A DNA stretch of 62,538 nucleotides, filler included, from Dugesia japonica (GCA_001938525.1; 5 parts of 5 records of this genome joined end to end with filler, not necessarily neighbours in it); one strand, 5' to 3'. Positions 7,378-61,580 are shown, counted from the first letter of the whole stretch. Notes: a model not told the origin generated them from the sequence alone. Program-made: numbers and translations.

Positions 7378-10047
7378 TCACAAAAAAGAGACTTTTCTTG
7401 CCTTGTGCAAAGCAAATTGTGAAATTAAGTCATGCATTTCTAAATTATCTAAGATTTCATGTTCAATTGAAATTATTGATATATTACCTAGACGTTCCTG
7501 GAGCATAGTAGATCTTAAATGATTTTTAATTATCTTTAATTTTGAAAACAATCTTTTACCTGTTGCAACTGAGATTGGTAATGTTAATAAAATTTTGGTC
7601 ACAATAAATATATTTGGGAATGTTGCCTGAAGATCATTTTGTAAAATATATAATAATATAGATTGAGGTTTAATATCTTCTTTTAAAAATACCTTTAAAG
7701 TTTTTATCTCTTCGAATAAATCATTTCCATTAATATCAGACTCATTTCTTTGTTCGTCAGTTAATTTCAAATGCACATCTTTGCAAAAGTATTTCTTCTG
7801 TTTCATCTTTAATATTATGCATAAATCCAAATATATCATTATACAATTTCAGCGTTTCGAATCTTGTTGTAATTGATACTAATACTTGGTCTATAATGCA
7901 GAAATAAAATTTAATTTTAAAATTTGCTTTTGGATCTAATATTGGTTCATCCTTGCCTTCATAATCAAAATTTGTTGGTTTTTTTCTTATTCTTAAACTT
8001 GTAACTTCTGGAAATTTANNNNNNNNNNNNNNNNNNNNNNNNNNNNNNNNNNNNNNNNNNNNNNNNNNNNNNNNNNNNNNNNNNNNNNNNNNNNNNNNNN
8101 NNNNNNNNNNNNNNNNATCTAACGCGGTAACGCTTCTCTTGATATCGGTGTTTGGGTTCTGTAATATTTGACTAACTACATTAATTTTCAGCAAAATTTC
8201 AATAACAATGGAACATAAATAAAGATAACTTGATATTTTTAGTGAAAGTGAATTTGCTACATGTCTGGTTTTAAAGTCAATCAGTTGATAATTTGATATT
8301 TCAAGAAGAGATTCATAAATTTTTTTAGTATGATACCTTAGTGGTTGGATGACATCAACTCTACTTGACCACCTTGTATCGCTCAGGGGTTTTAATTTTA
8401 AATTCGTTAAATATTTTACTATTCTCGCCCATCTTTTAGTTGACGCCGAAAAAATACATATATTTCTTTTACTAAATCAAAAAATGTTATTGTTTCATGT
8501 GAAAATGTGCCGCATCATTAACAACTAAATTTAAGCCATGAGCAGAATATGGTACAAAAAATGCTCGTGGATTTATATTTAAAATTCTTTTTTGTAAGCC
8601 ATTGTGCTTTCTACGCATAATGGTACAATTATCATATCACTGTCTACGCATATTATGAATATTTAAATTGAGATTTGAAAGTTCTTTTGAAACAAAATCG
8701 GTTAACTTCTCTCCAGTATTATTTGTTATTGGATAGAAACCCAAGAAATGTTTACTTAATTTAATTATTTTTGATTCCAAATTCACAATTCTTATTACAA
8801 TAGTTAATTGCTCGGTATGATTAACATCTGGTGTGCAATCCAATATAATTGAAAAATATTTTGTTNTTCTAATTAAATCTAATATAGCGTTTTTAATACT
8901 TGTGCTAATAATATTGATAATTTCGTTTTGTATTTTATCCCCCAAATAACGAGGCATATATTTCAAATTTTTTCGAGACTTTTCAATCCGTTGTACATGC
9001 TCTTGCATAATAGGGTCAAATCTAGCAACCATTTCTACTGCTTTCAAAAGGTTTCCATTATTATTTGCATATAATTGATTTGACTTTCCTCTTGTGGCAA
9101 GACATTGTCTAGAACGATATTGAATAATAGATATTATTCGTTGAATTACTTCATCCCAATACTTTCTTCCGGCTTGTAATAGTCTTTGGTTCGCAGCATC
9201 AACTGTAGTATTATTTTTTAATGATTTATTTAACAATATCCATTTTTTTATATTTTCATTATGAAACTGACTTTTTTCATGTCGAGACAAAGTTAACGAT
9301 AAATGTTGCCAATCAGAAAAACCAGATGAATCGGCTAGACTGCTTTTATTACCGAAATCAAATATCTTACAACAAAAACTATACACAGCATTTTTTGTAA
9401 TAGTTGATATTTGATTGCTTGACAACGCTGTTGGTGTATTTTGAAAATATTGTGAAAGTGAATTCTTCAAACTCTGTATAGATTTCACTTTATTTAAACG
9501 CTGCTGTTTATATTGCGCTCCAGATAAAAGTTTAGTTTTTCTTCCGGTCGTATCTAAGGGTGCAAATCATACAAATAATAAATATCTAACATACATAATA
9601 ACAATGTTGGTTAACAAAAATATAGAAAACATTGCATTATACTTACCAAATTCTATAATATAATCCTGCTTTCTAATCTAACAAATTGTAATGTATATCT
9701 CTATCTTTTTTCGTAATGTATATCTCTAATTTTTTTTAAATAAAAATCTCTTATTGATTTTTATATATTTTAAAACTAGCAATGTTGATTTGGTTCAAAA
9801 ATTAAAACACTAAATGACTATGACAAGATAATGACAGATATTTGAAAATTAAGCTGGAGTGCGCTCAATGACACCACACACACAATGGGTGCATTCAATG
9901 ACAAAATAGTCGTAATCTTTTTTTATTTTACAAAATGAACATTTTTTTTTTAGTTTTTGCAAATGGTTTTTATTTCAAATTTGTCGCTCTTTCAAACGGC
10001 CGCCTGAGTGCAACGCGTGCATTGCACACCCGCTTGGAGCATCCCTG
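7378..10047 (-). mobile_element. hAT DNA transposon, ZMYM1-like/Tip100-type transposase pseudogene
   Basis: ORFs 8637-9488 (GFSDWQHL..HEKS..H; NNGNLLKAV; YFSIILDCTPDVNHTEQL), 7757-8194 and 7378-7839 (FPNI..LTLPISVATGKRLFSKLKIIKNHLRSTM, hATC). TRWSSR motif near 8365. Putative TIR start CAGGGATGCTCC at 10047. Confidence 0.9.
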
Positions 10048-20750: not shown

Positions 20751-22491
20751 TCTATTGTATATTGAGACATCAGTTGGAAATTTTTCAAGCCAAAATTTTA
20801 TTTGATTGTAAAAAATATTTTAAAAAATAGTTAAAAATTTTTATAAAANNNNNNNNNNNNNNNNNNNNNNNNNNNNNNNNNNNNNNNNNNNNNNNNNNAA
20901 GTCCATAAGCAATTTTATTAAAATGCATAGAACCGTAATTAAAATATAGACTAATTTTATTAAGATTTTCTAAATTTCCATTAATTTTCTTAAGCTTCAT
21001 AAATTTTATTAATTTTTTATAAAGTTATATAAAATTAATTAATTGTATTAAAATTCATCGATTATAATAGGCTTAATAGATTTATCGTGCTAATCAGAGT
21101 TCAACAGTTGTATTTACACAGTAGGCTAATGATGCATATGGATAAGTAAAAACGAAAGTTTACTATATGGACATTATAGCACTTTATTCCTAGATGATCA
21201 TAATTTAAATTAAGAATAGCTGCAAGTAAGGATTTGACATTTCCTAATATTATAATTGTGGCATTTAAGTAATTTCAATGAAGATAGTAATAAATTGAGT
21301 CATTCATTCATCAGATTTTCTTTTAAATAAATTATTTTTATAAAAAATATCTTGATATCGTTATTTTGTTATTTACTTTGTTTTTATACTAATATTGACA
21401 TTGTTCAGTGAGTAACCCATAAAAAGTACTTGTTTTTCCCATTTATTTCATGAAGCATAAATATTGATGATTTTAACAATGTTATTCATTATTCATTATT
21501 TTTTATTCATTATTTTTTTCATTATTTCATTATTCAAAATTCATTATTTCCGCGGTAGAATTCATTATGTACTTGTTTTCAATATAAATTTTTATGTATA
21601 AGATTTGACGATATTTGGTGATGATATTGTTAATCACCGTAAAATTTTCTATCTAAAAGATAGTTCAATTATCTTATTTGAGATACTTTTTATTTTCAAT
21701 TAATTATTGAGTATTACAAAATTTAAACTTTTTTCAAAAATAATTTGACTTGACAAGTTTTCCCGTATATATTCTTGATCAACACAAAGTTCTCCTTCGA
21801 ATAGTACATGAATCAATAAATTTGGATGAAAATTAAAAAAAAATTTTTTTATTTGTGTCGGTTAAGCATCCTCGGGATTTTCGACCTGGTTTTTTCTAAT
21901 TTTCTCAGTCAAAATTAAGATGGACGATTTTAGGTGATGTTTTTCTTAATCAGTGAAACATTTTTAATTTATTTATGTTATTTCGTTACGATTAGAGAAG
22001 AGTAATTTTCAAAATTTCTCAAAAAATCAAGTTTTTAATCAATGTTTAAATAGGCCAGTCATGATCACTGGAAAGGTCTTTATCGAATAGACTAGTTTAT
22101 AATTAAATTCGAGAAAAAAATATTTTTCGCAAAAAGTATTTTTAGCTAGAAATAATCCAGCCTAATGTAAAAATCTCGATAAAAATGTTTTTTCAAAAAT
22201 TTTTCAAATTTGGTTGGTTTGCCCGGATTTTCATACGTATTTTAATTATTTTTAAAACTTTTGAATTATTTAAACTAATTCATCTATTTCCCACAAATTT
22301 CCGTAAAAAATTCCATTCAAACAGACCAACCCGAGGAAATTATTGCTCAAAATCATAAAACATTGACCCTCGTGAGTAAATAATCAACCAAGTTTGCCCT
22401 TACCGGATGGTCAATGTCGCACATTATAGAATATAAATTAGATCTTTCTAAAAAAAATCATTAGCAGGTGCGAGTTATTGTAATTTACAAT

Positions 22492-23792
22492 TTCAAAAAC
22501 TAGGAGTTGTTAATATAGAAAATAAAGATAATAAATGTTTTCTATATTCAATCTTAGCTCATAAATATGTAGTTGAAAATCCAACAAGAGTAGAAAATTA
22601 CATTTCACATTTATCAGATTTTAAATATAATAACTTTAAATTTCCAATGAATATTGATGATATAAGTAAATTTGAAAAAATAAATAATTATCAAATTAAT
22701 GTATTTGGTGTAGATGTTAAAAAGAAACTTGAGCCACTTCACATTTCACATTATACAAGAAATCCATCACCCCAAGAAAATAAATGTAACTTGTTAGTAT
22801 TTAATGATCATTACATTTTATGTCGAGATATAACTGTATTCTTTACTAAAAAAACAAATANNNNNNNNNNNNNNNNNNNNNNNNNNNNNNNNNNNNNAAG
22901 CGAAGCGGTATTAATTAAACATCAAGATGCATGTATTAGGCACAAACCAAATAACATTGTTTTTGAATCTAATGATTATTATTCTTTTAATAAATATTAT
23001 CAAAAAAATAAAATTCCATTTATNNNNNNNNNNNNNNNNNNNNNNNNNNNNNNNNNNNNNNNNNNNNNNNNNNTCAGATTTAAAATATAATAACTTTAAA
23101 TTTCCAATGAATATTGATGATATAAGTAAATTTGAGAAAGTAAATAATTATCAAATTAATGTGTTTGGTGTAGATGTTAAAAAGAAACTTGAACCACTTT
23201 ACATTTCTCATTATACAAGAAATCCATTACCTGAAGAAAATAAATGTTACTTATTAGTATTTAAAAATCATTACATTTTATGTCGAGATATAACTGTATT
23301 CTTTACTAAAACAACAAATACAAATTATCCATGCATTAGATGTATGAATTGTTACTCGAGCGAAGCGGTATTAATTAAACATCAAGATGCATGTATTAGG
23401 CACAAACCCAATAACATTATTTTTGAATTTAATGATTATTATTCTTTTAATAAATATTATCAAAAAAATAAAATTCCATTTATATTAATTGGTGATTTTG
23501 AAACATATACAAATTCTATTACTAAAAAACAAAAAGCTTTATCTTTAGGTGTTTATTTAAAATCTGATTATCCACAACTAATAAAAAGTAAATATTATGA
23601 ATTTACAGGTGAAAATATTTATGATGAAATTTTTAAATTTTTAGAAGTTAATGATGAATTAAATCAGATAAAATATAAAAGATTATTTAAAGAATATACA
23701 GGAACAAATCATCCAGATTATACATTTGACACATTATGCTATTATTGTAATAACTTAATAGAAAATCCAGTTAAAGACCATAATCATTTCAC
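22492..23792 (+). mobile_element. Polinton/adintovirus protein-primed DNA polymerase B, N-terminal part (partly duplicated across a gap)
   Basis: VVNIENKDNKCFLYSILAH, FPMNIDDISKFEK.N..INVF, C2H2 finger CIRCMNC..KHQDAC, ExoI GDFET, and the EndoVII-like start CYYC..VKDHNHF. Ends at an assembly linker. Confidence 0.85.
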
Positions 23793-24084
23793 NNNNNNNN
23801 NNNNNNNNNNNNNNNNNNNNNNNNNNNNNNNNNNNNTTAATTAATTAANNNNNNNNNNNNNNNNNNNNNNNNNNNNNNNNNNNNNNNNNNNNACTAGAAA
23901 TATTTCAATTGGTTGATGTTAAAATTGGTAGCAAATCATTGAAATCATACTACACACACACACACATACACAAAATTGTAAATTTTAAAAAGAGAATAAA
24001 AATAAATAGAAAATTTATTAATGTACAAATGTTGATAATAATATTTAGCTCTAATTTGTGTAACTTGAACAAATCTCGTTATTA

Positions 24085-27000
24085 TTAATCATCGAGATAC
24101 TCGGAAGGCCCAAAAGATTCAAGTTTGATTTCAACACATTTCATCAACAAACAATTCATAAAGGATCGAAAGTAATTGAACGACACTAAAGCACCAATCA
24201 ATTTCGTGCCATCTTGTATTTCTACTCGGATAACTTCCATCTTCAGATTCTGATGGGCTGCACTAATCAATTTCCAAGCGAAAAACACAGATCCGGTGAT
24301 TATGTAATTGTATTTCGTTCGTTTCCCGTAAAAACAATTCGGTCTGGGGCAGTCTCCTCGATCGATATGATGGAGACAGTTCTGCTCGCTCTCCCTATAA
24401 ATGTGAACCCACTCCTTCTTNGCCTCCTGGAAATCTATCCAATCGTACATGGTTCTCAANGAGTTCTCATCNATNGATTTCGCTGGAAACTGGATCGTTA
24501 TCAATCGATATTTTCCATTTTCCTGATATTCGGCGAGCGCCAGAATTTTAATAGCTCCTCTTTTCGACACGCAAAATTGATTTCTCTCTCTGTTCCTGTT
24601 GTATATCTGACAAGCAGTGGCCCAACTGACACCGAGATCGATATGTTTCAACTTATGCACGATTATATCATTGTGCGATGATACCGATTCGTTCTTGTTT
24701 TCATTCCCGACGACGACGAAATCTTTCCCTTTCCCTCGATATCGCAACACTCGTGTTTCTTCAATACAGAATAGGTAATCATTCTGTTTGTTGCTCACAT
24801 CTCTGATCCCATGATCGAACTCGTTGCGAGATTTGGCCTCTTGCATTCTCAATTCGAGCGCGTCCAGGAAATATTGAAATAAACAATTCTGGATATCGAG
24901 TTGGATTCCGAGGATTCGATTGAGGAATCTCGCAACTGTGACAGATTTCACTTCATCCAGCCCGACATTCCTCAATGAATCTCCAGCTAATTTACGGAAA
25001 ATATTCTTCTTCTTCTCGTCCGTCGCGTATTTCCCAGGAAACGGAACCGGTTGCGCTCGGAATCCGATTATCGATTCGATGATTTCTTTGACAGCTTTGG
25101 CTCCGAATGCGTTGTCGAGATTGAATTGGCTCAAATCTGCCGAATCAGCGCATCTACGATCCCCATGAGTGAGAGCGCCCAGTGATTCTAATCGCTTAGC
25201 AACGGTTGCTGCAAACCGTTTCTCTCCAGCCAAATCCGAAATAAGAAAGATATAATGAGGAGGAACAACTTGATTCGATCGATGAGTTCGTCCGAATTGC
25301 TGGACAGCTTTATCAGCTGACCACGGCAATTCCAGCGTGATATGAACTCGTTGGCGTTTATTGTCGAATCTCCGGTCGGAATGAAGAGAAATTCCAGTGC
25401 TAGCCGCATCGGAAATGATCGCAATTAATTTCTCTCCACTGTTGAACCGATTTTTCTCGAGAATGTTCATTTGGTCAAGAGAATAACCGATTTCCTTTCT
25501 TCCTTGATACGAAATATTCCCTCCTTCCATCTTGATCATTCTTCCTTTCCTCCCGGTCATTTCTGCTACTTTATCCGGTCCTCCGAGCCCATCAATCAGA
25601 TGATCGAGAACATTTACTGGCAACATTCTCTCGATCTCTCTGATTATTCCCAATAATCTACGCTTGATTGGAGAATCTGGTGATTTGCTGTTGTTATTGT
25701 TGTCGAAATAATCACAATCTTCTTCTTCCTCCTCCTCGTCTTCGTCCTTCTCCTCTTCATCTTCCTCGCTTGATTCCATCAGATCGATTTCCAATTCGAA
25801 ATTATCGTTTTTCTTGGATTTCTTCTTGGGTTTTCCAGCTGTCAGTTGAAATCTCACCAAATTTTCTGCACTCGGATAAAAATTTTTGATGAGATTCTTC
25901 ACGACTCCTTTTGCACTCGATACAAAACAATCCAACAAATCTCCTGCTTCCTCGAGTTCCCCAACTGTTCTCGCCTCCCCGGTCGATTGGAGCCCAATCA
26001 CAACGCATTTCCCAGTCGCAATTTGTTGATTAACGAGTCGGACACACTCGTCAACCTTGCTCGACATGCAGAGATATTTGAAAAACCGTTGATGAGCACC
26101 CCAAAACTGCGCCATGAAAATGTTCTCGATTTTCACCGGATATTTGTTCCGTTTGAAAGCATTATTGAATTCTTCGTAACATTTGGTCCAGACGAGCACA
26201 GATCTGTTGTAAACTTCCTCAAATCTGTACCCGTTGATATTGGCGGTCTCTACGCGCATCTCTCGAATCTCAAATACGACTCCTTGGAAACTGAGTTGTC
26301 GAGCTAGATAAATTCCTTTCATTTTCATTTCTATCGCAATCAACTCCATCGCTGCTACTCCGTGTCGTTTCAGAGCTTTGTTGAACTCGTCGAAATGTTC
26401 AAACGGTTTATTCGGGCCCCATAATCCCAGCCTCACCATGTACGCCATATGTTTCGGTTCCGTGGCTCCGGTAGCACTCGCATACACAACTCTCGCTTGT
26501 TTCAGAGTGTCTTGCAATTCCTTGACAACCGTTCCACATTTCGTTATGTTTCTTCCAATCAGATTCTTTGCTTTATGACTCTCATCGAAAATAATCACCC
26601 CATCGTACTCTTCGCCGAACCAATCGATTATTTGTTCCAATCTTCGATGAAACATGAAAATTTTCCCTTTTTTCTGACTACTTTTCTGACTGATTAAACT
26701 TGAATAAGTCGTAAACAAAACTCCCGATGTAAAGTTTCCATTCGAACTCGAATTGATTTTCTGATAACTCATTTTGTTCAGCGATTTTACTTCAATCTCC
26801 ACGTCTATTTCTCGTCCGATATCTCTCAGATCCCGCCTAGCATCCTCCACTAAGTCACTGCTCACAGATATCCAAATAGCTTTCGTTCTTCCTTGGAAAA
26901 AATTCTCATAAACTATTCCTGCAACTGTTCGACCTTTTCCAACCCCAGCGCCGTCCCCAATTAAAAATCCAGCCCTTCTTCCGTCTGATAAATATTCCTC

Positions 27001-27810
27001 GTGTTTTTGACAGGCATAACTCAATGCTTCCAATTGTACATTTGATAAAAGTCCTTTTTCAATTATAATAGAATTTATTTCTAATTTATAAGTAATATCA
27101 GGAGCTTCCATCGTGGTCAGCGATCTAGACTCCACCACAGCATACGGATGACGTTTTCCAATTTTCAATTTCGTCGGTTCATATTCTGAATACGCGCCGT
27201 TATAGATTAACTCACCAAATTCCCGATTTTCGAAACAATATTCTTGAGGAAGCGAGGAATCCACATAATTATTACTCAAAGACGATGTAATCGTTTCTCT
27301 ATTAAAAACTGATTCTCGAACTTCTGGAATTTCAAATGAGATTTTTCTCTTTTTTGATTTCATATGATTTGATTCCTCGTAATTATTACTACAATGGGAT
27401 CCTGTAGTTTCACTGTTTTCTGAAATATCAAATGGAATATTCCTCTTTTTTGATTGTAAATAGCTTGATGAGTTGTCTTTGGAAGAGCCATTAAATAAAT
27501 TCAGCAATTCATCCATTTCATCACTGTCGACATAATCATCTACAGTTATATGATTATTCATAACAGAATTTTGATTGTGAATCTTATCAAAATCTTTATA
27601 ATTTTCCCACTCACTATCAGAACTTAATGTATTGTCAGAACAGTTATCACTAAATTCGGTATTAACTAAATTATTTTCATGTAAATTATTAATATCCACA
27701 GGCTGGATATCATTCTTTTTAACATTTTTATTAAAAAATTCAAGAAACCACTGTTGAGGTTCAAAGATTTGTAATTCCTGAACATCTGATAAATCTTCTT
27801 TATTTTCCAT
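24085..27810 (-). CDS. SBNO1: Strawberry notch homolog (SF2 helicase-like nuclear regulator), 1241 aa, single uninterrupted ORF
   Basis: [125 protein letters not shown] and the C-terminal [16 protein letters not shown]. The family is certain; orthology to SBNO1 versus a paralog is not. Confidence 0.95.
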   Translation of the reverse strand: [1241 protein letters not shown]

Positions 27811-28639
27811 GAGTTTTATAGACTTAACCTATTTCTGGCTTATTTTAAGATTTTCCTAAAAATATATCTTTGTAAATCATTTAGTTACATAATATAACAG
27901 CATACAAGATTAAAAATATAATTTTAAAAATTACTTATTTATTAATAAATTGAAACTAATAAATAATAAAATTATGAATCAATAACTTAATATGACTTAA
28001 AATCATATCAGATCCTTATTAAAACAACTTTAACAAAAAGTAGAAAATATTTTAAAAATTCACAAATGACAGATATTTTGTAAGGTAATCTCATTATATA
28101 TTTTTCATTTTTCTTAAAAAATTTATTAATTTACGAATTTTAAAGTCAATAATTAAAAAAATTTTCTTTAAACATTTATTTTAATGCAGTAATTTATGCA
28201 AAGAATTTATAAATACAGAAATTTTAAAAGTTTGGTTTTTTAATATACTAAGAAATAAAAGAGAATGTAGTAGTAAATTGAACTAAAATTTGTGAGAAAA
28301 CCTAATACACGAGAATCAAAAAATAGTATATGGGTTTCTATGGGTTTGAGTATCCTGAAATGGTTTTCATTAATTATTCCTTATTCGTTGATTCGGTATA
28401 TTACTGATATTTCTTTTAAAGATCAAACTATTGCAGGTTTTAAGCTGAAGTAGAAAAATTTATTGGCTTATTTACAACTATTTTTATTTTCTCTTGAATA
28501 ATCATAATACTTAACGAGTATTATGGCACTTTGTAAAACAGTAATCCCTACATATACATGACTTGACTATGTTGCTATAAACGGCAATCTGACCTTTTGA
28601 CTTTCATAAGTTAAAATAATAATTTTTTAACTGTTTTTT

Positions 28640-31698: not shown

Positions 31699-33849
31699 TC
31701 TCCCTTCCTTTAAAATTTGTAATACTCTTCCAGCCATTCAATTCTTCTGTATTTCCTTCCATCTGAATATTCCAGTTCGAATTGATGATCCGTCGGGAAA
31801 GCAATGATTTTTACCGGACCTTCATATACATTGCCATCCTTTTGTCTCCTTTGTAGATCTATTTTTACCAAAACTCCCTGTTCCATTTCAAAATCTCTGT
31901 GCACCTTCTTCTCAACATCTAGACTTTCCATTCTTTCAGCTGAAATCTAAAGATTACCCCGTACCTTTGACAATACTTGTTCTTGATCCAATATTACGTA
32001 TGGATCTTTGCCATGAATATTTATCTTCCTTCCAAATATTATTTCTATCGTAGAAAATCCTGTTGACTCTTGTATCGTTGAGTTAATGGAATATTCAATT
32101 TTTGGTATGAATTCTTCCCAGCACAATCCTGTTCGCCCATCATTTGAAAAATTGACAACCATATCTCGGACCGTCCTAATTGCTNNCTCTGCTAAACCGT
32201 TCGAATTATGATCATATGGTGAAGTAAAAATCCATTCAATATTAAATTTATCAACCAAACCCTTGATCTGACTCCCTTCGAAGATTTTACCTCTGTCCAA
32301 TACAATCCATTTTGGTTTTCCAAATATGTAAATCCATTGATGTAAAATAACACGGTGAATAGTATTTTTATCTTGTTTTTGTGTTGGTGTTAAACTAATC
32401 TTCTTACTAAATTGATCTATTATTACGACTATATAACGATTACGGCTCTGCTTTCCTTCATATGCGTAATATTTATCACAATTTGATTCAAAGGGTTCAT
32501 AGCTTTTCTTGGTATTAAATATTCGACTGTCTTTGATGTTAGTGTCTTTCTTCACATACACGACTCACATTTTTGTATAATCGACTTTATATATGTTACT
32601 ATGTTTATCCAAAAGAAATGACTGTCAATATAATTTATAGTTTTCTTAACACCTAAGTGACAAATTTCTTTATNNNNNNNNNNNNNNNNNNNNNNNNNNN
32701 NNNNNNNNNNNNNNNNNNNNNNNNNNNNNNNNNNNNNNNNNNNNNNNNNNNNNNNNNNNNNNNNNNNNNNNNNNNNNNNNNNNNNNNNNNNNNNNNNNNN
32801 NNNNNNNNNNNNNNNNNNNNATTATAAAACTTTAATCGCTTCCAAAACAGAATCCTCATCTTGAGTGGCACAATACGTTTCAATATTAAATTCGTCTGAC
32901 AAAATTGCATTTAAAAACCTTACTCTGCTCTTCTCTATTTCTCTTTCTTCGTATTCACATTGACATTGAGAGCAATAGCTCAATAATATTCTGGATAATC
33001 CGTCTGCATTGTTATGGTTTTCACCCTTCCGATATTCCAGATCAAAATCATATCTAGATAATTCACTTAACCATTTATGAAATTGTATATTTATTGGTTT
33101 TGTCGTGGACCTCAAAAATTTGAGAGCTTTGTGATCTGTACGTAAATGAAATTTCTTATTGTATAAGCAGGTCTTGAAGTAAAGCACATGCTCATATATA
33201 GCCAGCAACTCCTTCCGTGTCACATAATAACTATTCTCAGGAGCACTTAAAAGCCTTGATCCATATGCGATAACTTTTTCACATCCATCTTGTAACTGAC
33301 TAAGAACAGCACCAATACCGCTAAAACATGCACCCGTGTCTAAAATAAAAGGATGATATTTGTTTGGGAATGCCAATACTAGAGTAATTGATAAAGAATG
33401 TTTGAGTTTCTGGAAACCTTTTTGACACTCTTCATTCCATTGTATGTCTTTCACATTTCCCTTAGTAACCTCATATAATGGTTGGGCAATTTGAGCAAAG
33501 TTAAAAACAAATTTACGGTAGTAATTTGGCAAGCCAAGAAATGACCGTAATGGTTTGGTGCNCTTTGGAATTTCCGCTTCAGCAATTTTCTTAATCATAC
33601 CATTATTAGTACTTATTCCCTCTTTTGATATTTTTGACCTAAAAAACTAAGTTCAGTTTTATACAAACTACACTTCTTTGGATTGAGTCTTAATCCCGCT
33701 TTTTGTATTCGTTTAAAAAACCTCATCTAGGTTTCTATCGTGTTCTGCACTGTTGTGCCTTAAACCAAGACATCGTCTAAATACGCCGCGACTCCGTTAT
33801 AAAAGAAATCCTCGAATAATACATGTATGAGACTTTGAAAAGTCGCTGG
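31699..33849 (-). mobile_element. Gypsy LTR retrotransposon pol (RT-RNase H-integrase), frameshifted, 5' truncated by an insertion
   Basis: PATFQ..AYLDDVLV; LRSFLGLPNYYRKF; ILDTGACFSGIGAVLSQ; RKELLAI; RTDHKAL; NADGLSR; integrase IDQFSK..LDRG..SNGLAE; YEGPVKI; purine tract near 31700. Confidence 0.92.
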
Positions 33850-34750
33850 AGTAGGTAGATGTGAACGTAGAAATACAGTAGGTGTTATTGAGCCCTCTTT
33901 CCTCTCCCACGGGGGAAAGGGGGTATGTTTGAATTTGTGTTTGAATTTGTGTATAATTTTGTGTTTGATTTCATTGGTGGGTTTTCGATTGAATGCCGGA
34001 AGATGTAGTTTTGTTTAAATTTGTAAAATTTTTGGTGGGAAATTTAAAATTTATTTTTATTTTTGCGATTGATTAAAACAAAAAAATAATTTTTTTAGCA
34101 AGGATTACTGTGTTTGTGCGCTCACATCAACCGTAAAAGTTACTAGCCATTTTGGATTTAAGAATTTTTTGATCTGATTTCTGACCAGATCAAAATTTTG
34201 ATCAGATCAGATTTTTGATCGGACCAGATTTTTTTGATAGTTAATATTTCTTTTCCTTCTTTTTCTTCTTTTCATTCTTTTCATTCTTTTCCTTCTTTTC
34301 CTTCTTTTCCTTCTTTTCCTTCTTTTCCTTCTTTTCCTTCTTTTCCTTCTTTTCCTTCTTTTCCTTCTTTTCCTTCTTTTCCTTCTTTTCCTTGTTTTCC
34401 TTGTTTTCCTTGTTTTCCTTGTTTTCCTTGTTTTCCTTGTTTTACTTGTTTTCCTTGTTTTCCTTGTTTTCCTTGTTTTCCTTGTTTTCCTTGTTTTCCT
34501 TCTTTTCCNNNNNNNNNNNNNNNNNNNNNNNNNNNNNNNNNNNNNNNNNNNNNNNNNNNNNNNNNNNNNNNNNNNNNNNNNNNNNNNNNNNNNNNNNNNN
34601 NNNNNNNNNNNNNNNNNNNNNNNNNNNNNNNNNNNNNNNNNNNNNNNNNNNNNNNNNNCATGATCCACGATAACATATGGCACAAAATCAAACACAGGGT
34701 TATCAATTATCAAGACTCAAGAAGCGGGGCTCGATAACACATACTGTGTT
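33850..34750. mobile_element. AGTAGG-terminated TIR element inserted in Gypsy RT
   Basis: Starts AGTAGGTAGATG exactly where RT homology stops. Internal ACAGTAGGTGTTATTGAGCCC is mirrored at ~34728-34748 (GGGCTCGATAACACATACTGT). Confidence 0.5.
34250..34508. repeat. 9-bp tandem repeat (CCTTCTTTT/CCTTGTTTT)n
   Basis: Directly visible. It accounts for four low-complexity ORFs in the track. Confidence 0.95.
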
Positions 34751-34779: not shown

Positions 34780-35365
34780 AATAGAGAAGAGCAGAGTAAG
34801 GTTTTTAAATGCAATTTTGTCAGGCGAATTTAATATTGAAACGTATTGTGCCACTCAAGATGAGGATTCTGTTTTGGAAGCGATTAAAGTTTTATAATGA
34901 ACCCTTCTTCGATAGTACTAAAGTTGATTCAAGATTCTGTGTATTTTCATGAATTAGATAGGATACTATTGAAAGGTAATTTATTATTAATAGAAAGTGA
35001 ACATAGACAGAAGATAATCATTCTGCATAAGATTGTTGAGAGATTTGTGGTACATATGGATAAAGAAATTTGTCACTTAGGTGTTAAGAAACATAGTAAC
35101 ATATACAAAGTTGATTATACAAAAATGTGAGTCGTGTATAAGACGGAAAACACTAACATCAAAGACAGTCAAATATTTAATACCAAGAAAAGCTATGAAC
35201 CCTACTGATCAAAGTGTGATAAATATTGCGCATATGAAGGAAATCAGAAGCCTTAATTGTTATATAGTCGTAATAATCGATCAATTTAGCAAGAAGATTA
35301 GTTTAACACCATCACAAAAACAAGATGAAAATACTATTCACCATGTTATAATACATCAATTAAAC
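34780..35365 (+). mobile_element. Inverted duplicate of the Gypsy RNase H-integrase junction
   Basis: Reverse complement of ~32340-32940 (EKSRVRFLNAILS..; IVVIIDQFSKKISLTP). Confidence 0.8.
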
Positions 35366-36009
35366 ATTTTTTTAACTCGTGATCAATTGTACTGAACTAA
35401 TCTGGTCAAAAAGAAGTTATTTGAATATAGTCATTTAGTTTCTTTGTTTAATTTCTTTCTATTAATAATAAATTACCTTTCAATAGTATCCTATCTAATT
35501 CATGAAAATACACAGAATCTTGAATCAACTTTAGTACTATCGAAGAAGGGTTCATAATAAAAACTTTAATCGCTTCCAAAACAGAGTCTTCGTCTTTAGT
35601 GGCACGACACGTTTCAATATTAAATTCGCCTGACAAAATTGCATTTAAAAACCTTACTCTGCTCTTCTCTATTGTCCTTCTACGTGTTCACCAATGAAAT
35701 CAAACACAGTATGTGTTATCGAGCCCCACTTCTTGAGTCTTGATAATTGATAACCTTGTGTTTGATTTTGTGCCATATGTTATCGTCGATCATGATTAAT
35801 AAATGACATTCCTGTAGAATTATATCACTTGGGAACAAAGAAATTAAATGACTATATTCAAATAACTTCTTTTTGACCAGATTAGTTCAGTACAATTAAA
35901 CGTGAGTTAAAAATACCCTTAATTTTTAATCAAAGAAAAACATATACATGCAAAATAAAAGAATCTTTATTATTTTGAACTAAATTTGGAGCATTTGAAC
36001 AGATTATTA

Positions 36010-54079: not shown

Positions 54080-54355
54080 CTAATTCCAAATTTTCATTTT
54101 CTTTTGATGCTTTATTTTGTGAGAATGATCTTCATCATTGTCAGTATTATTGAATTTTATGAAAAACTGAGTGCACACTTCAACAACAATGTTTTGCAAA
54201 GTTACATATGGAATATTGGTACCATTAGATGTGGAATTACAAATATCCGTGAGAACGTTGTTTCGGTAGATTTTATCTTCCCAATTCAACAAATCGGGCA
54301 TCATTTGAACCAAAGAAAATCCAAAAATGAAAATTAAAATTATGGTAAGTTTCAT
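54080..54355 (-). CDS. Candidate small secreted protein (91 aa)
   Basis: ATG-initiated. MKLTIILIFIFGFSLVQ looks like a signal peptide; there are two Cys, NxS/T sites and a His/Lys-rich tail. No recognised homolog. Confidence 0.4.
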   Translation of the reverse strand: MKLTIILIFIFGFSLVQMMPDLLNWEDKIYRNNVLTDICNSTSNGTNIPYVTLQNIVVEVCTQFFIKFNNTDNDEDHSHKIKHQKKMKIWN

Positions 54356-54961
54356 TTTAATTTATTTAATCGTTTAATATGATTATTTTTATCATTTATA
54401 TAACTATCCAGATTACTTATAAAATATTCAGTAGTATACATAATAAAAAGGAAAAATGCTAATTTCTTCCCTTATTTTATTCTACTGTTCAAATAGACAC
54501 AACATCGACGAAAGAATAATATAAATAATTAATTTTTCTTTTGTTTAAATACACATCATTGATTTATCTATTGTTTTAACTATTGGATTCAAAATCCAAA
54601 TTGTTTTGACTGAAAAATTTCTATTTACATCTCAATAAATTTTATCAAATGAATAAATTAAAATTTTTAATAATTTGCAAGTGAAATTGTAGGTTTACAT
54701 TTCTTTAATTTATAATAAACTTAAATTATCCACTCTTACTTAAATGGAATTTGAAGTAGGTGGTTAGGCAGGGACACGCGCGGAAGTGACGTAATCACCG
54801 TTCACGCCTCTTATGTAAACAACAATAGGTGTGAAATTTTCACATCTTAATGTAAAGAATGTAAAATAAAAATTCACACCTTTAGAATAAACAATGACCT
54901 TAGGTGTGAAATTTCACACTTCAGTTGACCTCAAATTAAATTTTTTTGTTTAAATTAACAT

Positions 54962-56950
54962 GAAAAAATTGTACACATAATTTGCTAAGATCCAGCACCA
55001 CCTGTCCAATGTAACTTGGTCTATCCAGACATATACAATCCTTCTCCAGCAAGAAAGCTTTTAATCCTTCTGCATCGTCTTTTTGAATGTCACTTTGCTC
55101 GTATACGTAACAAATTTCTTTTCATTATTGCAGAGTCGAAGATTCATACGCTTTTATAAATTCTCCACCGTCTTACCGTATAAAGCATTATTCAGCAACT
55201 TAAACAAATCCTTCTCGAATTTTGTCTTAGATGCAGCTCTTATTGCTGAATTTGCGTTATGTAATTCGCAAAGATTTCCGTCTGTTTAAATTTAATTATC
55301 TTGTGTACTGCCGTCACACGAGCACCTAGNTTTATATACAACTCCAACCATCGCCAATAGATAAAATAATGGCTTTTCGGCTCATGTGTTAGCAGCAATC
55401 TTTTCACCTTTGATTCTGGCGGGCATTTATGCTCTGGGGCCAAAGGTAATTGATCAAACCTATCATGATATTCGATAGGTATCTCCAGATCAATTTCCAA
55501 CAAGTATCCGATTTCATTATCACAGATTGATAATAATAACGTCTGATATTCTTCTCCCGACTGATCTTACGCTATAAACTCAAAGTCTCAATATGGTAAA
55601 AGCTGTGTTAAGGCGCAACCATATATTTTATTTATATTAATATATAGCAGTGAGGTATTCTTATCTGCCTGAAAGTATTGTGTATTTACCAATGTCATGC
55701 CACCCCAAATTCCTGATTCAATTAACCGATACGTTTCCGGGTCCTGTAGTAATTCAAACGCTCTATCCATTATTTTGAGAACACTTGACTAACTCAATCC
55801 CGGTAATGATAGAAATTGAAGCGGCTCCAATTTATGCTCCTCAAGTGCTTTTTTTCTGAATGCTTGGAATACTTCGCCAATAGATAAATATCCAGTTTTA
55901 TATAATATAACATGTTTTCCAAGAGATTTTTTCTCCGAGATTCCGACCATGCCGCAACTGCCAATTGATATTCTTCTTCGGTTATTTCCGGTCACCTATC
56001 TGTTAATGTTGTTCGATTGACGAGCATCTTATAAGATGTTTCGAACTTGTACGGAAATATTCCTTTACTTTGATGTCCTTGCTGCAGGAATTCTGACAAT
56101 GTAATCAGCCAGTTCTCAGGAGTTGCAGTCAACGATGATAGTGAACTGCTCAGGAACTGGTATGAATCAATAAATCGAATTGTGATTCCATTACTCACAT
56201 TTGCAAACATTGTAAGGAATCTTTCTGTGGTTTGTGTAATTGATTTCAGCTCCCAATGCTGAAATATTTGATTATATGATGTGAATCATAACCTTTAAAG
56301 TTATGAAATACAACAGACAATTCCATTCTGTTCTTTTTGGATAAATTGCATTGATTGTATGCAGCTCAAATATATTTTCCTGAGAAAAAATCGTGATCTC
56401 GAACTAGTTTCTTGCTATGGTCTCCACATAAATAGCAAAGTGTGGAGACATTCTGATCTTCTGTTGTTATTTTCATATCTGCACACATGTTTTTTTTATA
56501 CCATGGTGCCACTACATTTTTTGCTAATTTATCAATACAATTAAAAAATTCGACCATACAATTTTCGCCAGAAAATGAATAATATTCGCATTTCCTTGCT
56601 TCATTCAGTAATTAAATTATTAATAGACCACAGGTATTGATACGTGCTTCACTCGACCATCGTCTTCTGAGACTAGGACTGCTTCAATATCAGCATATAT
56701 TACAAATTCTGGAGTAATAGTTTTCCGAAATTCTTGAATTTCAACTCCTTTTCTTCCGGCATTCTGTACAGGGTTGCTTATTCTGTAATGTGGCTGCATA
56801 GAGCTACATGCTATTTGAATGTAGTTTGTGTCCTAAAACCATGAAGACACTTTTGATATCATTTTCTATGAATCTGTTGGTTTATTGATTAAATACCTAA
56901 ATTCAATAATCTATCCAGATTTACCACTCCGTGTAATGATGATCCTGATC
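54962..56950 (-). pseudogene. Protein-primed DNA polymerase B with inserted EndoVII-like domain
   Basis: C2H2 KCLHGF..HVALC; ExoI FVIYADIEA; CYLC..VRDHDFFSGKY..CN; FHNFKGYDSH; FIDSYQFLSSSL; KGIFPY; SLPGLS; GIWGG; KIYG; KLLNNALYGKTVEN; PSYIGQVVLDLSK. Many frameshifts, and the YxDTDS motif is absent. Confidence 0.9.
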
Positions 56951-57124
56951 GTTTTTCAACACCAGCAAATTCACGGGGCATCCATGTGGGTTTTTTGTTC
57001 AGAAAACCACGTCAACATTTGAATTCTTGTAAACAATTTCAGTGTCTTCTTCTTCATCAATTACTTCTTTATACTTAAAAACCGTTATTGATTTATCATT
57101 TTCCGCTCAGATTTCGTGATATTG

Positions 57125-58128
57125 ATGAGCTTCATCGGCATCTTCTGCTCATCGTTATCAGATGCTAACAATTTTGATTTCAATTTAATCAATACCAAAA
57201 ATAAGAAGCAATTAATTTCAGTTATTGAATCTGATGAGCAGTTGATTCTGGAAAATAATCCATAAATATCTTTAAAATGAAAGTTTAATACTATTGATGA
57301 AGGAAAGGCTAAAATAAAAGAAATTGAAGAAAATGTAAATGTTGAGATTAAAAATGGAAAACCTGTTGTTTCTGGATTGAAAAATAAAAAGAATTGCGAA
57401 ATCAGTATTAATGGTGGAAAAAAAATAATTATCAAGTCTGATTGCAATATGGAATCGGAGTTTAATTCATTGTTTGATGCTCGGTTACTAGCATTTAATT
57501 CGCAAAAGACGAAAAACAAACCAATGCACTCATTTATCGAATCAGATACTCAAAGGTTGGATAATATTTCCAAAACCGATGTTAAATTAAAATTTACTGA
57601 AAGCGAAACAGAAATAAATTATTTTGAATTTGAAAGTGATTTAATGGTTACGGATCTGGATAATCTGGTTACATCATTTATAAAATTATGCCGTAAAATA
57701 TTTAAAGAACTTTTTAGAGATTTGGACTGGTCATGTTTAAATTACTTGATAATAATGAATATGTATCATTTGATGAGAGTCTTTCTCTAATACTCGGTCT
57801 TCCTTCTGCAAAATTCTACAAGTATACAGAACAAGTAAAGAATTTGCATAAACCATTATTACATGATGGTACCAGGCAACTATATATTTACTCATCAATA
57901 GTCAATATAATTCTGATTAGTGATATACGAGTGCCACGTTTGTGGAGTATATATGTTGATAGTAATAAGCGTTCATTTGGTGATGTTGTACATGTAAGAC
58001 TTGAAAATCCAATTTATTTACCTGTATCATCATCAATCAACAAAATTGAAGTAAACATACATGATGATGCGGGAAGATTGATTGATTTTCCATATGGATC
58101 AAAAACAAGTTTAAGACTATATTTTTGA
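57125..58128 (+). pseudogene. Minor capsid protein (penton)
   Basis: The C-terminus LYIYSSIV..ISDIRVPRL..GDVVH..NPIYLPV..KIEVNIHDDAGRLIDF..LYF fits the Polinton penton. The upstream frame 57125-57790 has stops and a frameshift. Confidence 0.8.
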
Positions 58129-58376
58129 CAAGTATAAACAATTTGATAACAATTTGATTTATTATTGAAATGGTTGATTGAGCTATTATTACAATGTATA
58201 GTCGTCCACAAATGGATGGAGACTTGCCATACTTTATCGATAGTCAAAAACAGCAAGGTGATGGAAATTGACTGCATAGAATTGGAAGTTTGCAATTTCA
58301 ATTTTATAGAAATTTGGACTTTCAATNNNNNNNNNNNNNNNNNNNNNNNNNNNNNNNNNNNNNNNNNNNNNNNNNN

Positions 58377-58788
58377 TGATTAGTGATATACGAGTGCCAC
58401 GTTTGTGGAGTATATATGTTGATAGTAATAAGCGTTCATTTGGTGATGTTGTACATGTAAGACTTGAAAATCCAATTTATTTACCTGTATCATCATCAAT
58501 CAACAAAATTGAAGTAAACATACATGATGATGCGGGAAGATTGATTGATTTTCCATATGGATCAAAAACAAGTTTAAGACTATATTTTTGACAAGTATAA
58601 ACAATTTGATAACAATTTGATTTATTATTGAAATGGTTGATNGAGCTATTATTACAATGTATAGTCGTCCACAAATGGATGGAGACTTGCCATACTTTAT
58701 CGATAGTCAAAAACNGCAAGGTGATGGAAATTGACTGCATAGAATTGGAAGTTTGCAATTTCAATTTTATAGAAATTTGGACTTTCAA
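58377..58788 (+). repeat. Near-identical duplicate of 57914-58325 across a gap (probable assembly overlap)
   Basis: The sequences on the two sides of an N-run are essentially identical. Confidence 0.8.
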
Positions 58789-59036
58789 TTACAAAGTCGG
58801 TGAGACGAGAAGCACTAAAAACTGTTGATGATGTTATAAGCAAGAAGCAGTCATTTAAGGAATCAATCAAGAACAAAGCAATGAATATGTTGCCGGATGT
58901 TAAGGAAAATACACTTAATGCAATAAAGAAAGTTGTTGGTGGACAGCTTGGCAATAGAATACGTAAACTAAAAAATAAAATAACATTGACTATAAACAAA
59001 AGACGACAATTAGATGGAGCCATCTTTGCAAAATAA
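58633..59036 (+). pseudogene. Small Gly/Lys-rich virion core or membrane-active protein between penton and hexon
   Basis: PQMDGDLPYFIDSQK.QGDG..FAISIL..REALKTVDDV..SFKESIK..GGQLG..KRR resembles the Q.GG.LP.F....Q.G.G protein of adintoviruses. Frameshifted. Confidence 0.6.
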
Positions 59037-60262
59037 GCATGTATGCCGGAAAACTGAATCATCGCTTTTTGACCACAATATTCCACATATTGTTGTTAAA
59101 AGCTCAACGTTTGAAGAAATATACCCAAAGGATTCTATAACTGGGTATGCTGGACAACAAATTGAATTCAATATTATTGGTTCAGATAATGATTACTTGG
59201 ATTTGAATGATACGTTGCTCATTATTAAAATGAAGACAGTGAAACATAATGAAACGGATTTTGCATCAACTGATACTACCAACATAATTATTTACAATTA
59301 CTCGCTTCACACTCTATTCAAAGAAGCATCATTAACACTAAATAATGTAAAGATTGAAGATACAAATGATACGTATATGCAAAAGNCGGTAATTGAAGCC
59401 TCATTGAATTTCGGATCGGATACAAAAAACACTTCTTGAAGCAATTGGTTATCATAAAGAAGATGACAAGTGTAAAGGTTGGATTAAAGCGTCTGCAAAG
59501 CTAAAGCTCTGTGGTGCACTTAATTTGGATTTCTTTGACCCACCAAAGTATTTGTTGCCGGGAGTCAATGTGACAATCAAATTGACGAGAAATGTGGGTT
59601 TGGTAATTTAAAAATATACCAAGGGTACAGTTGAGAATAATCCACAACCGTACATTATAGAAACAAAATTAGTAATGCGATGTGTTTGTGTTGATCAGTT
59701 GGTTATGATTGGACATCGTCAAGGATTGGAACATCAAGATGCAATATACCCTTTCCAGAAAACAAAAATAGTACATTTTACAATTCAGAAAAACTCACAT
59801 GGGGAATATAAAGATAATCTCTTTTCTGATGAAAGGTTACCGAAATTTGTTTTGATTGCTTTCCAATCATCGAAACAAGCAAGTGCTGATTACGGCTCAT
59901 TTAGCTCAAAATTTTCAAATTTTGGTGTAAAATCAATATACTTGGTGAGAAACGTTGATTATCGAGAAACATATACTACTGACTTTGATACCGACTATAC
60001 TGAAGCATATGTTCAATCGATTATTCGTAATGTGGGTATGTTAAATGTTATTACAATGAAGGAATTTAAAGATTCGTATACGTTTTTCACCTTTGTATTG
60101 GCTCTGGACTTTGCAGTTCATCAACCTCATTTGCCAAAAACTGGAAATCTCAAGTTGGATGTGCGATTCTTTAAAGCCTTGACGAAATCAGTGACAATGT
60201 ATAAATATGGAGTATTTGATTCTGAAATTCAAATCACCAAGAATGGAGTAGTGGTTGTATAA
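59014..60262 (+). pseudogene. Major capsid protein (hexon, double jelly-roll)
   Basis: CRKTESSLF..IYP..QIEFNIIGS..YLDLNDTLL..K; SLHTLF; PKYLLPGVNVTIKLTRN; LPKFVLIAF; KTGNLKLDVRF..L...V....GVFDSEIQI. One frameshift near 59435 and internal stops. Confidence 0.9.
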
Positions 60263-60335
60263 ACAATACATACATGTATGTGTGTATTGCATAGCATGAA
60301 GTATGATTTGTTTATATAAAGAGAATTTATTGATT

Positions 60336-60684
60336 AATAATACTTTTCAAATTGAAACTATACTGAAACGTGATTTGGGCAGCAAGCGATTAAAAGGAGT
60401 GTATCCACTAGAACGATAATCAGACTTTTTACTAAACAGATGCTATGTAATCAATACACATACTTCAAATTTGGATGGTGACCATTGAATTGCAATTTAT
60501 GTCAAACCAAATATTATTCGTGTATTCGATCCAATGGGTATGTTTTATCCACCATTGCTGGTAACAAAATTGGAGCGTTTGCAACAACGTGTTGATACAA
60601 TCAAATAATGTTTCAGAATTCATTGACACTTCTATATGGACAATATTGTATTGAATGGCCCAAAAGCCAGTATAAACAATGTTG
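60336..60684 (+). pseudogene. Adenain-like cysteine maturation protease
   Basis: Not in the ORF track. Manual translation gives NTFQIETIL..KGVYP..YVINTHTSNLDGDH*IAIY..VFDPMG..(frameshift)..FQNSLTLLYGQYC. H-W has become H-stop, and the catalytic Cys position is Tyr. Confidence 0.85.
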
Positions 60685-60708
60685 ATGTGATTATCAATAA
60701 AACGTTTA

Positions 60709-60876
60709 ATGTTTGTGTTTTTTATTGATTATGAAGCCTTTCAGGATAATAATGGTGACTATTTAATTAAAGAACTATGTATAATGGATGCGAATAATAT
60801 TCTTCATTTATATGTCTCAGTTGCTGATCATTATTACCACTCATTGAATCATTTATTGGTTTTCAGGATAAATTAG
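60709..60876 (+). pseudogene. N-terminus of DEDD-type exonuclease-like Polinton accessory gene
   Basis: MFVFFIDYEAFQDNNGDYLIKELCI resembles the D.EGF....F..KELA motif. Truncated. Confidence 0.55.
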
Positions 60877-61169: not shown

Positions 61170-61580
61170 GATATTTTTCATAAATATCTGTCACTTCAAG
61201 ATATATTTTTTCGTACTACATGTTTCCACAGAATATTTGTCATCTTCAGATACAATATTTAATTTTTTTTAAAAGTGCATATATAATAAAATTTCTGATT
61301 ATATAATCAATTATTTAATCTCCCCAATAAATAAAATTAAAAACAATCATTAAAAAATTAATGTTCAAACTGATATTTTCAAATCTTTATTGAATGTTTT
61401 CAATTAATTTGCTTTATTGGAGATATTGCATAATTGATTACATAATTAGATTTTTTTTTATATACTTAAGCACTTTTAAAATAGAATTAAATATTGTATG
61501 TGAAGATGACAAATATTCTGTTGAGACATGCAATAGAAAAATATATCTTGAAATGTCGTTTCAGAGATTTTATTAAAAAA
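61170..61580. repeat. ~400-nt foldback (imperfect inverted repeat)
   Basis: TTCAAGATATAT..ACAGAATATTTGTCATCTTCA..ACAATATTTAATT is mirrored by AATTAAATATTGT..TGAAGATGACAAATATTCTGT..ATATATCTTGAA. Confidence 0.75.

What the first reader, a model, noticed from the sequence alone, without database searches (positions are those of the whole stretch)
54755..60876. Endogenous Polinton/adintovirus with a virion gene block in an invertebrate genome
Seen: an AGTAGG end, a divergently oriented pPolB, then tightly packed penton, core protein, hexon, adenain and DEDD-like ORFs; the hexon ATG overlaps the core gene. Known: this gene set defines virion-encoding Polintons/adintoviruses (Preplasmiviricota). 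Inference: a fossil of a possibly undescribed DNA virus lineage of this host. It is disabled: frameshifts, pPolB lacking YxDTDS, mutated protease catalytic residues, and no integrase or ATPase visible.
Basis: partly seen in the sequence, partly recalled or inferred. Interest (0 to 1): 0.8.

Follow-up and report, generated by a model that had tools for sequence, protein, structure and literature searches.

The report
Decayed Polinton virus relic, middle deleted
This stretch is the broken remnant of an integrating DNA virus of a known group (Polintons, also called adintoviruses) that once inserted into this animal-like genome and has since lost its middle and decayed, which is a common kind of genomic fossil.

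Summary
Window 54755-~60830 holds remnants of a protein-primed DNA polymerase (minus strand) and of penton, core (PW/cupiennin-like), hexon, adenain and a Maelstrom/DEDD-like gene (plus strand). Intact relatives fold as a double jelly-roll capsid (P0001, 80-81% identical to the window's hexon) and a penton (P0069, 57-74%). An intact relative, L001, has the same gene order and the same divergent polymerase, with ATPase, PZ and integrase between polymerase and penton. In the window both of those genes lack their 5' parts and meet at ~57142-57152, so one internal deletion (~4.7 kb by L001) best explains the missing integrase and ATPase. The polymerase also lacks its last ~165-200 residues, including motif C. 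It is Alpha-type, the virion block Beta-type: a pairing already described for adintoviruses. Corrections: the hexon's true start lies just after the core gene; of the protease triad only the cysteine position is changed; 413 bp around an N gap is duplicated. The subclade has no named member in what I could read and the host is unassigned. Verdict: ordinary fossil, new member of a known kind.

The parts
54755..54935 (.). Probable left terminus (inverted-repeat arm) of the element: AGTAG start, GC/CpG-rich first 56 nt, three AGGTGTGAA-type repeats; partner arm not found
   Evidence: L001's right end also reads AGTAG inward and has subterminal repeats, but the two ends do not align significantly. 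Inferred.
54954..57145 (-). [quoted passage not shown]
   Evidence: 9 HSPs in changing frames to P0068 residues 211-973 of 1171; to L001 pPolB up to residue 909 of 1073, motif C at 925; PF03175 E 0.0023 on one piece
57142..57152 (.). Deletion junction where 5'-truncated pPolB and 5'-truncated penton meet
   Evidence: pPolB similarity ends and penton similarity begins here; the matching points in L001 are nt ~2865 and ~7622. Inferred.
57152..58134 (+). Penton (minor capsid protein) remnant; lacks about the first 119 residues; one frame change, stops
   Evidence: 57% and 74% identity to P0069; P0069 model matches PBCV-1, mavirus, Sputnik and adenovirus capsid-vertex chains, Z 14.1-10.7
57914..58789 (+). 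413-bp direct duplicate (57914-58326 and 58377-58789) flanking a 50-N gap; most likely an assembly overlap
58636..59036 (+). Core protein gene remnant (PW / 'Cupiennin' class), broken by stops and a frame change
   Evidence: tblastn with L001 PW, E 3e-4, above 100 of 100 shuffles; position between penton and hexon; no Atlas hit
59039..60262 (+). Hexon (double jelly-roll major capsid protein) gene, full span, broken near 59050, near 59430 and at 59609-59611
   Evidence: 80-81% identity to P0001; P0001 model pLDDT 87.9 matches iridovirus and PBCV-1 major capsid chains, E about 1e-18
60318..60660 (+). Adenain (maturation protease) remnant; two stops, a frame change, catalytic Cys position altered
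   Evidence: 41-52% to L001 protease, E 2e-10, which hits PF00770; 43% to P0067
60709..60830 (+). 5' stub of a DEDD/Maelstrom-like accessory gene; last recognisable part of the element
   Evidence: 43% over 28 aa to L001's last ORF, E 0.003; that ORF resembles three unnamed clusters at 0.96-0.97 and Maelstrom at 0.86, a lead only

Best explanation
A dead, internally deleted germline copy of a virion-encoding Polinton (adintovirus type, Alpha polymerase with Beta virion block). The parent element, modelled by L001, would have replicated linear DNA with its protein-primed polymerase, integrated with an rve-chromodomain integrase, and packaged DNA with an A32-like ATPase into a hexon/penton capsid matured by adenain (known biology of the group, inferred here). 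After insertion this copy lost about 4.7 kb in one deletion (5' pPolB, a small ORF, ATPase, PZ, integrase, 5' penton), lost the polymerase 3' end and the right end, and gathered stops and frame changes. It now does nothing on its own. Shown: homologies, folds of relatives, gene order, truncation points, disablements. Inferred: the single deletion, the terminus, integration by integrase, neutral decay.
For: Colinearity with L001, including the divergent polymerase. Both genes next to the junction lack their 5' parts. Folds of P0001 and P0069. Decay: the window differs at 11 of 88 columns conserved in at least 90% of 54 intact hexons, against a median of 2 and a maximum of 9 among them and 0 for P0001; its terminal branch is 0.144 against 0.041 for its sister P0001 in a 56-sequence tree. 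GC 32.6% against 24.1% in the flanks. Polymerase motifs match proteins labelled PolBa and hexon/core match Beta-block proteins in the supplement of PMC11071296 (by eye).
Against: No right terminal repeat or target-site duplication, so integrase-made insertion is not shown. L001 is only 37-41% identical in the hexon, so the closest relatives' gene order is unknown. The folds are of relatives, not of the window's own pieces. The Alpha/Beta calls rest on motifs, not on a tree with the reference viruses. The assembly is gappy and has a duplicate inside the element.
Confidence: 0.85

Rival explanations
1. The parent was an integrase-free, adenovirus-like MELD virus that was captured by chance, so the lack of integrase and ATPase reflects the lineage.
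For: No integrase or ATPase trace in the element; no right end or target-site duplication; integrase-free MELD viruses are described from Hydra and a spider (PMC8502044).
Against: Both genes flanking the gap are cut at their 5' ends with no room for starts or promoters; both fetched relatives carry an rve-chromodomain integrase directly upstream of the penton (2 of 2 loci).
Confidence: 0.05
2. The arrangement is partly an assembly chimera of several decayed copies, and the junction is not real.
For: A 413-bp duplicate across an N gap inside the element and a similar one at 22614-23483; many N runs.
Against: The junction itself holds no N; order and orientation on both sides agree with L001. 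Even if true, the identity of the pieces stands.
Confidence: 0.08
3. The copy is a host-domesticated or still mobile non-autonomous element kept for a function.
For: One terminus-like end survives; two hexon pieces of 141 and 216 codons are open.
Against: Every gene is broken; conserved hexon positions have eroded; only one end is found.
Confidence: 0.02

Closest known systems
Adintoviruses (NCBI family Eupolintoviridae) with Alpha PolB and Beta virion block, e.g. the Parasteatoda spider element of PMC8502044
   Same: Integrase-penton-Cupiennin-hexon-adenain block with a pX-tailed gene and ATPase (in L001); Alpha-type polymerase motifs; MAEL-labelled accessory genes occur on the published Alpha-PolB maps.
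   Different: This copy lacks integrase, ATPase and PZ; its hexon subclade gave 0 matches for 5 of 6 subclade motifs and 5 of 6 in the readable part of the PMC11071296 protein files (the other matches were unrelated or a distant hexon).
Vertebrate Mavericks (PMC8097293)
   Same: Second module int-mcp-pw-Mcp-pro in the same order; AGT-type ends; modules pointing away from each other are known from the cane toad; most loci are degraded.
   Different: There ATPase and PZ travel with pPolB on one strand; in L001 they lie on the virion strand. Polymerase class differs (by motif).
L001 (contig JANOGQ010000345.1, held in a bacterial MAG)
   Same: Same order and orientation of all shared genes; ACTACT end.
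   Different: Intact; 27-45% protein identity; has a TBP-like gene between protease and the DEDD-like gene, absent from the window.
HNH-bearing pPolB2 of nematode and oomycete Polintons (10.1101/2023.08.22.554363)
   Same: An HNH/EndoVII-like insertion in the polymerase (PF02945 E 0.0019 for P0068, 0.0004 for L001, both under the curated cut-off).
   Different: Relationship not tested; the same motif is in PolBa proteins of PMC11071296, so it is no mark of novelty.

Membership tests
Polinton / adintovirus (Eupolintoviridae) | Protein-primed family-B polymerase | tested here: met
   Remnant matching P0068 and L001 pPolB; motif C absent
Polinton / adintovirus (Eupolintoviridae) | N-terminal OTU-like domain on PolB (PMC11071296 section 16) | tested here: inconclusive
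   The Cys motif (P0068 residue ~174) lies in the deleted part; the His-side stretch aligns at 56933-57100. Motif assignment from my knowledge.
Polinton / adintovirus (Eupolintoviridae) | rve integrase with C-terminal chromodomain | tested here: not met
   Absent from this copy; present in L001 and L002. This copy is therefore filed as a relic of the group, not as a complete member.
Polinton / adintovirus (Eupolintoviridae) | FtsK/A32-like packaging ATPase | tested here: not met
   Absent from this copy; Pox_A32 E 7.8e-7 in L001
Polinton / adintovirus (Eupolintoviridae) | Double jelly-roll major capsid protein | tested here: met
   Through P0001, 80-81% identical
Polinton / adintovirus (Eupolintoviridae) | Single jelly-roll penton, one gene upstream of the hexon | tested here: met
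   Through P0069; best match Z 14.1, rmsd 2.8, 136 aligned; mavirus penton Z 12.9, rmsd 7.2, 232 aligned
Polinton / adintovirus (Eupolintoviridae) | Adenovirus-like maturation protease | tested here: met
   Broken remnant homologous to PF00770-positive L001 protease and P0067; the window's own frames gave no Pfam hit
Polinton / adintovirus (Eupolintoviridae) | Terminal inverted repeats with 6-bp target-site duplication | tested here: inconclusive
   One terminus-like end only; no partner in the window
Polinton / adintovirus (Eupolintoviridae) | Hexon recognised by BLASTp against the Mayetiola or Terrapene reference | not testable with these tools
   References not held by the sequence tools; by-eye likeness to Beta-block hexons
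Alpha-PolB / Beta-virion hybrid class | Alpha-class polymerase | tested here: inconclusive
   Motifs agree by eye with PolBa entries and not with PolBb entries; no tree with references
Alpha-PolB / Beta-virion hybrid class | Cupiennin (PW) and GasderminX (PZ) genes | tested here: inconclusive
   PW remnant present, weak score; PZ absent here, present in L001 with a pX-like tail at E 0.05
Integrase-free MELD virus | Complete genome without integrase | tested here: not met
   The copy is incomplete and cut at the place where relatives carry the integrase

The most novel reading that the evidence does not exclude
The relic marks an unnamed and probably still active adintovirus clade (P0001-P0008; intact sister hexon only 0.04 substitutions per site from the shared node) that infects a fast-evolving animal lineage not yet recorded as a host. 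The clade would have divergent polymerase layout, a 451-residue penton with a multiply repeated loop insert, and Maelstrom-like and TBP-like accessory genes in the wider group that could act on host piRNA defence and transcription.
Probability: 0.3. Interest if true: 0.4.

Novelty: new member of a known kind. Interest (0 to 1): 0.2.

Why it matters
Little by itself: degraded Polintons are common in animal genomes. It is a pointer to an unnamed subclade with intact members in public data. If the host proves to be a poorly sampled lineage with intact, expressed copies, it would add a host and a model in which to look for Polinton particles, which have rarely been observed.

Tried and rejected
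Pfam on the window's open frames: 24 proteins scanned, of the 16 from the element only one informative hit, PF03175 at E 0.0023; read-through frames of polymerase, protease and DEDD-like region gave 0 families for 5 of 5. NCBIfam and PHROGs on 10 proteins: no capsid family, only EndoVII matches for pPolB. PDB by sequence: 0 hits for the hexon profile, 0 for L001 pPolB, one chance hit for the DEDD-like protein. Phage records: no match to L001 pPolB. Rfam: 0 matches in the window. ESM Atlas: no usable hit for the core frame. Polymerase search found 1 relative among 525 candidates, a weak search. Right terminus: none. Rejected: hexon start at 59014; the duplicate as a real second penton/core gene (identical copies beside an N gap, though L002 does have two penton-like ORFs); PZ at 57088-57156; a link between the element and the second polymerase fragment at 22452-23793 (no DNA similarity); programmed frameshifting, proposed for some adintovirus pentons and hexons in PMC11071296, as the cause of the breaks (they are many, mid-gene and come with stops). 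Host assignment through strawberry notch failed: named top hits are animals of all groups at about 43-54% identity. Literature searches for this subclade or its accessory genes listed nothing specific to it; the library lacks most subscription papers, and Repbase could not be searched.

Full report
Observation. The window is AT-rich (27.2% GC) with many N gaps; 54755-60876 is 32.6% GC against 24.1% in the flanks. Six-frame translation shows polymerase-like pieces on the minus strand from about 57145 to 54954 and capsid-like pieces on the plus strand from 57152 to about 60830. Pfam sees almost nothing in the pieces, so identity had to come from intact relatives.

Hexon. The longest in-frame stretch (59438-60259, one stop read as X) found 67 proteins among 527 candidates, the best 82% identical (P0001, 415 aa). 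None carries an informative name. P0001 covers the window's gene from residue 5 to 415 at 80-81% in two frames. I aligned 54 of the 67 hits (13 partial or fused ones dropped) and folded P0001: pLDDT 87.9, pTM 0.87. Foldseek placed it with major capsid chains of Singapore grouper iridovirus, PBCV-1, Sputnik, faustovirus and mavirus (best E 1.3e-18, TM 0.62) and with NCLDV, adomavirus and MELD capsids in BFVD. The closest relatives start MYAGK and the window has these codons at 59039, so the gene starts two bases after the core gene's stop and is broken again a few codons later; the overlapping ATG at 59014 is fortuitous.

Penton. The piece 57718-58125 found 624 representatives at E up to 0.001. 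The best, P0069 (451 aa), matches the window from residue 120 to the end at 57% and 74%. From 97 of the 150 listed hits (those of about 330-460 aa) the P0069 model (pLDDT 80.5, low in residues 88-197) matched chains of the PBCV-1 capsid (Z 14.1, rmsd 2.8, 136 aligned), the mavirus penton (Z 12.9, 7.2, 232), Sputnik (12.6, 6.6, 234) and an aviadenovirus (10.7, 3.9, 232), above unrelated rows at Z under 6.5; BFVD gave minor capsid and adomavirus LO5 proteins. The long insert agrees with the repeated penton loop inserts described in PMC11071296 (section 16 read).

Polymerase. One relative was found among 525 candidates (P0068, 1171 aa). It aligns in nine pieces in changing frames from residue 211 to 973. 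Motif C lies at residue 1000 of P0068 and 925 of the L001 enzyme, beyond the window's last match; no such motif is in the element. The HNH-like zinc finger and motifs A and B agree by eye with proteins labelled PolBa, not PolBb, in the supplement of PMC11071296.

An intact model. A scan of bacterial and archaeal genomes matched 29 stretches, 2 confirmed: eukaryotic-type Polintons sitting in MAGs. L001 reads: pPolB (minus), then on plus a 128-aa ORF, A32-like ATPase, PZ with pX-like tail, rve-chromodomain integrase, penton, core, hexon, adenain, TBP-like gene, DEDD-like gene, subterminal repeats and an ACTACT end. L002 has integrase, penton, core, hexon. The window is colinear with L001. Polymerase similarity stops and penton similarity starts within about ten bases at 57142-57152; the matching points in L001 are about nt 2865 and 7622. 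One deletion of about 4.7 kb thus accounts for both truncations and for the missing ATPase, PZ and integrase. This is an inference from a relative only 37-41% identical in the hexon.

Decay. Every gene is broken. The window differs at 11 of 88 highly conserved hexon columns; the 54 intact proteins differ at a median of 2, at most 9. In a FastTree tree of 56 C-terminal halves the window is sister to P0001 (support 0.90) inside an eight-member clade (support 1.0), with a terminal branch of 0.144 against 0.041 (midpoint root, no reference viruses). Most of the distance is therefore on the window's side, as expected for decay after insertion from a parent close to a still intact lineage.

Ends and assembly. 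The left end looks like a terminus by composition and repeats, but AGTAGG alone is not rare and no partner end exists in the window. The 413-bp repeat around the gap at 58327-58376 is identical apart from two N and is most likely an unmerged overlap.

Host. hAT and Ty3/gypsy remnants and an intronless strawberry notch gene lie nearby. That gene is about equally distant from all named animal hits among the best 120 of 3207 (only 8000 candidates scored). The host is animal-like and long-branched; it was not identified.

Comparison with what is known. PMC8502044 (main text parts 1-4 of 6 read, supplement part 1 and one search; the sequence file lay beyond the cut) defines Alpha and Beta adintoviruses, describes Alpha-PolB elements with Beta virion blocks, and shows MAEL-labelled genes on its maps; its preprint 10.1101/697771 was seen as passages. 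PMC11071296 (passages, section 16, supplement searches; three files too large, two cut) gives the working definition and notes AB and BA pairings. PMC8097293 (passages, section 7) gives the int-mcp-pw-Mcp-pro module, divergent modules in the cane toad and 96% degraded loci. PMC4028283 (part 1 of 4) established the capsid genes. PMC11161782 and 10.1101/2023.08.22.554363 (passages; section 8 of the latter) cover polymerase domains and endonuclease insertions; PMC11131425, one passage. All other papers were seen only as search listings. Unseen supplements and Repbase may already hold this subclade. The equation of PW with Cupiennin and PZ with GasderminX is my reading from gene position and the sequences.

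Verdict. It works like, and descends from, a virion-encoding Polinton of the adintovirus type. This copy fails the integrase and ATPase criteria and is filed as a relic of that group. New member of a known kind; interest 0.2.

Noticed in passing
window 24085-27828 (-): Intronless 1247-codon strawberry notch gene, about 42% GC in its conserved part against about 25% around it, roughly 50% identical to animal SBNO proteins with no close relative among the best 120 hits.
   Followed up: partly
window 22452-23793 (+): A second, unrelated Alpha-type Polinton polymerase fragment (OTU to HNH part) ending at an N gap, with its own duplicate across a gap.
   Followed up: partly
window 7378-9566 (-): hAT transposase remnant.
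   Followed up: no
window 31947-33646 (-), 35081-35395, 39880-40239: Ty3/gypsy-like RNase H and integrase remnants with nested inverted copies.
   Followed up: no
window 61192-61555: A 360-bp near-palindrome (arms 77-85% complementary), MITE-like, just right of the element.
   Followed up: no
window 54080-54355 (-): Short ORF beginning with a signal-peptide-like stretch, 400 bp left of the element; no Pfam match.
   Followed up: partly
L001 10246-10698: The intact relative carries a TATA-binding-protein-like gene (PF00352, E 2.2e-10) next to a Maelstrom-like gene.
   Followed up: partly
L001 and L002, whole contigs: Eukaryotic-type Polintons held in bacterial MAGs, probably binning contamination; L002 has two penton-like ORFs in a row.
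   Followed up: no
protein P0067: A natural protein record joining the end of a hexon to adenain; hexon-adenain fusions by frameshift are proposed in PMC11071296, but a decayed copy would look the same.
   Followed up: no
window 34248-34508: 9-bp tandem array of 29 copies next to a 150-N gap.
   Followed up: no
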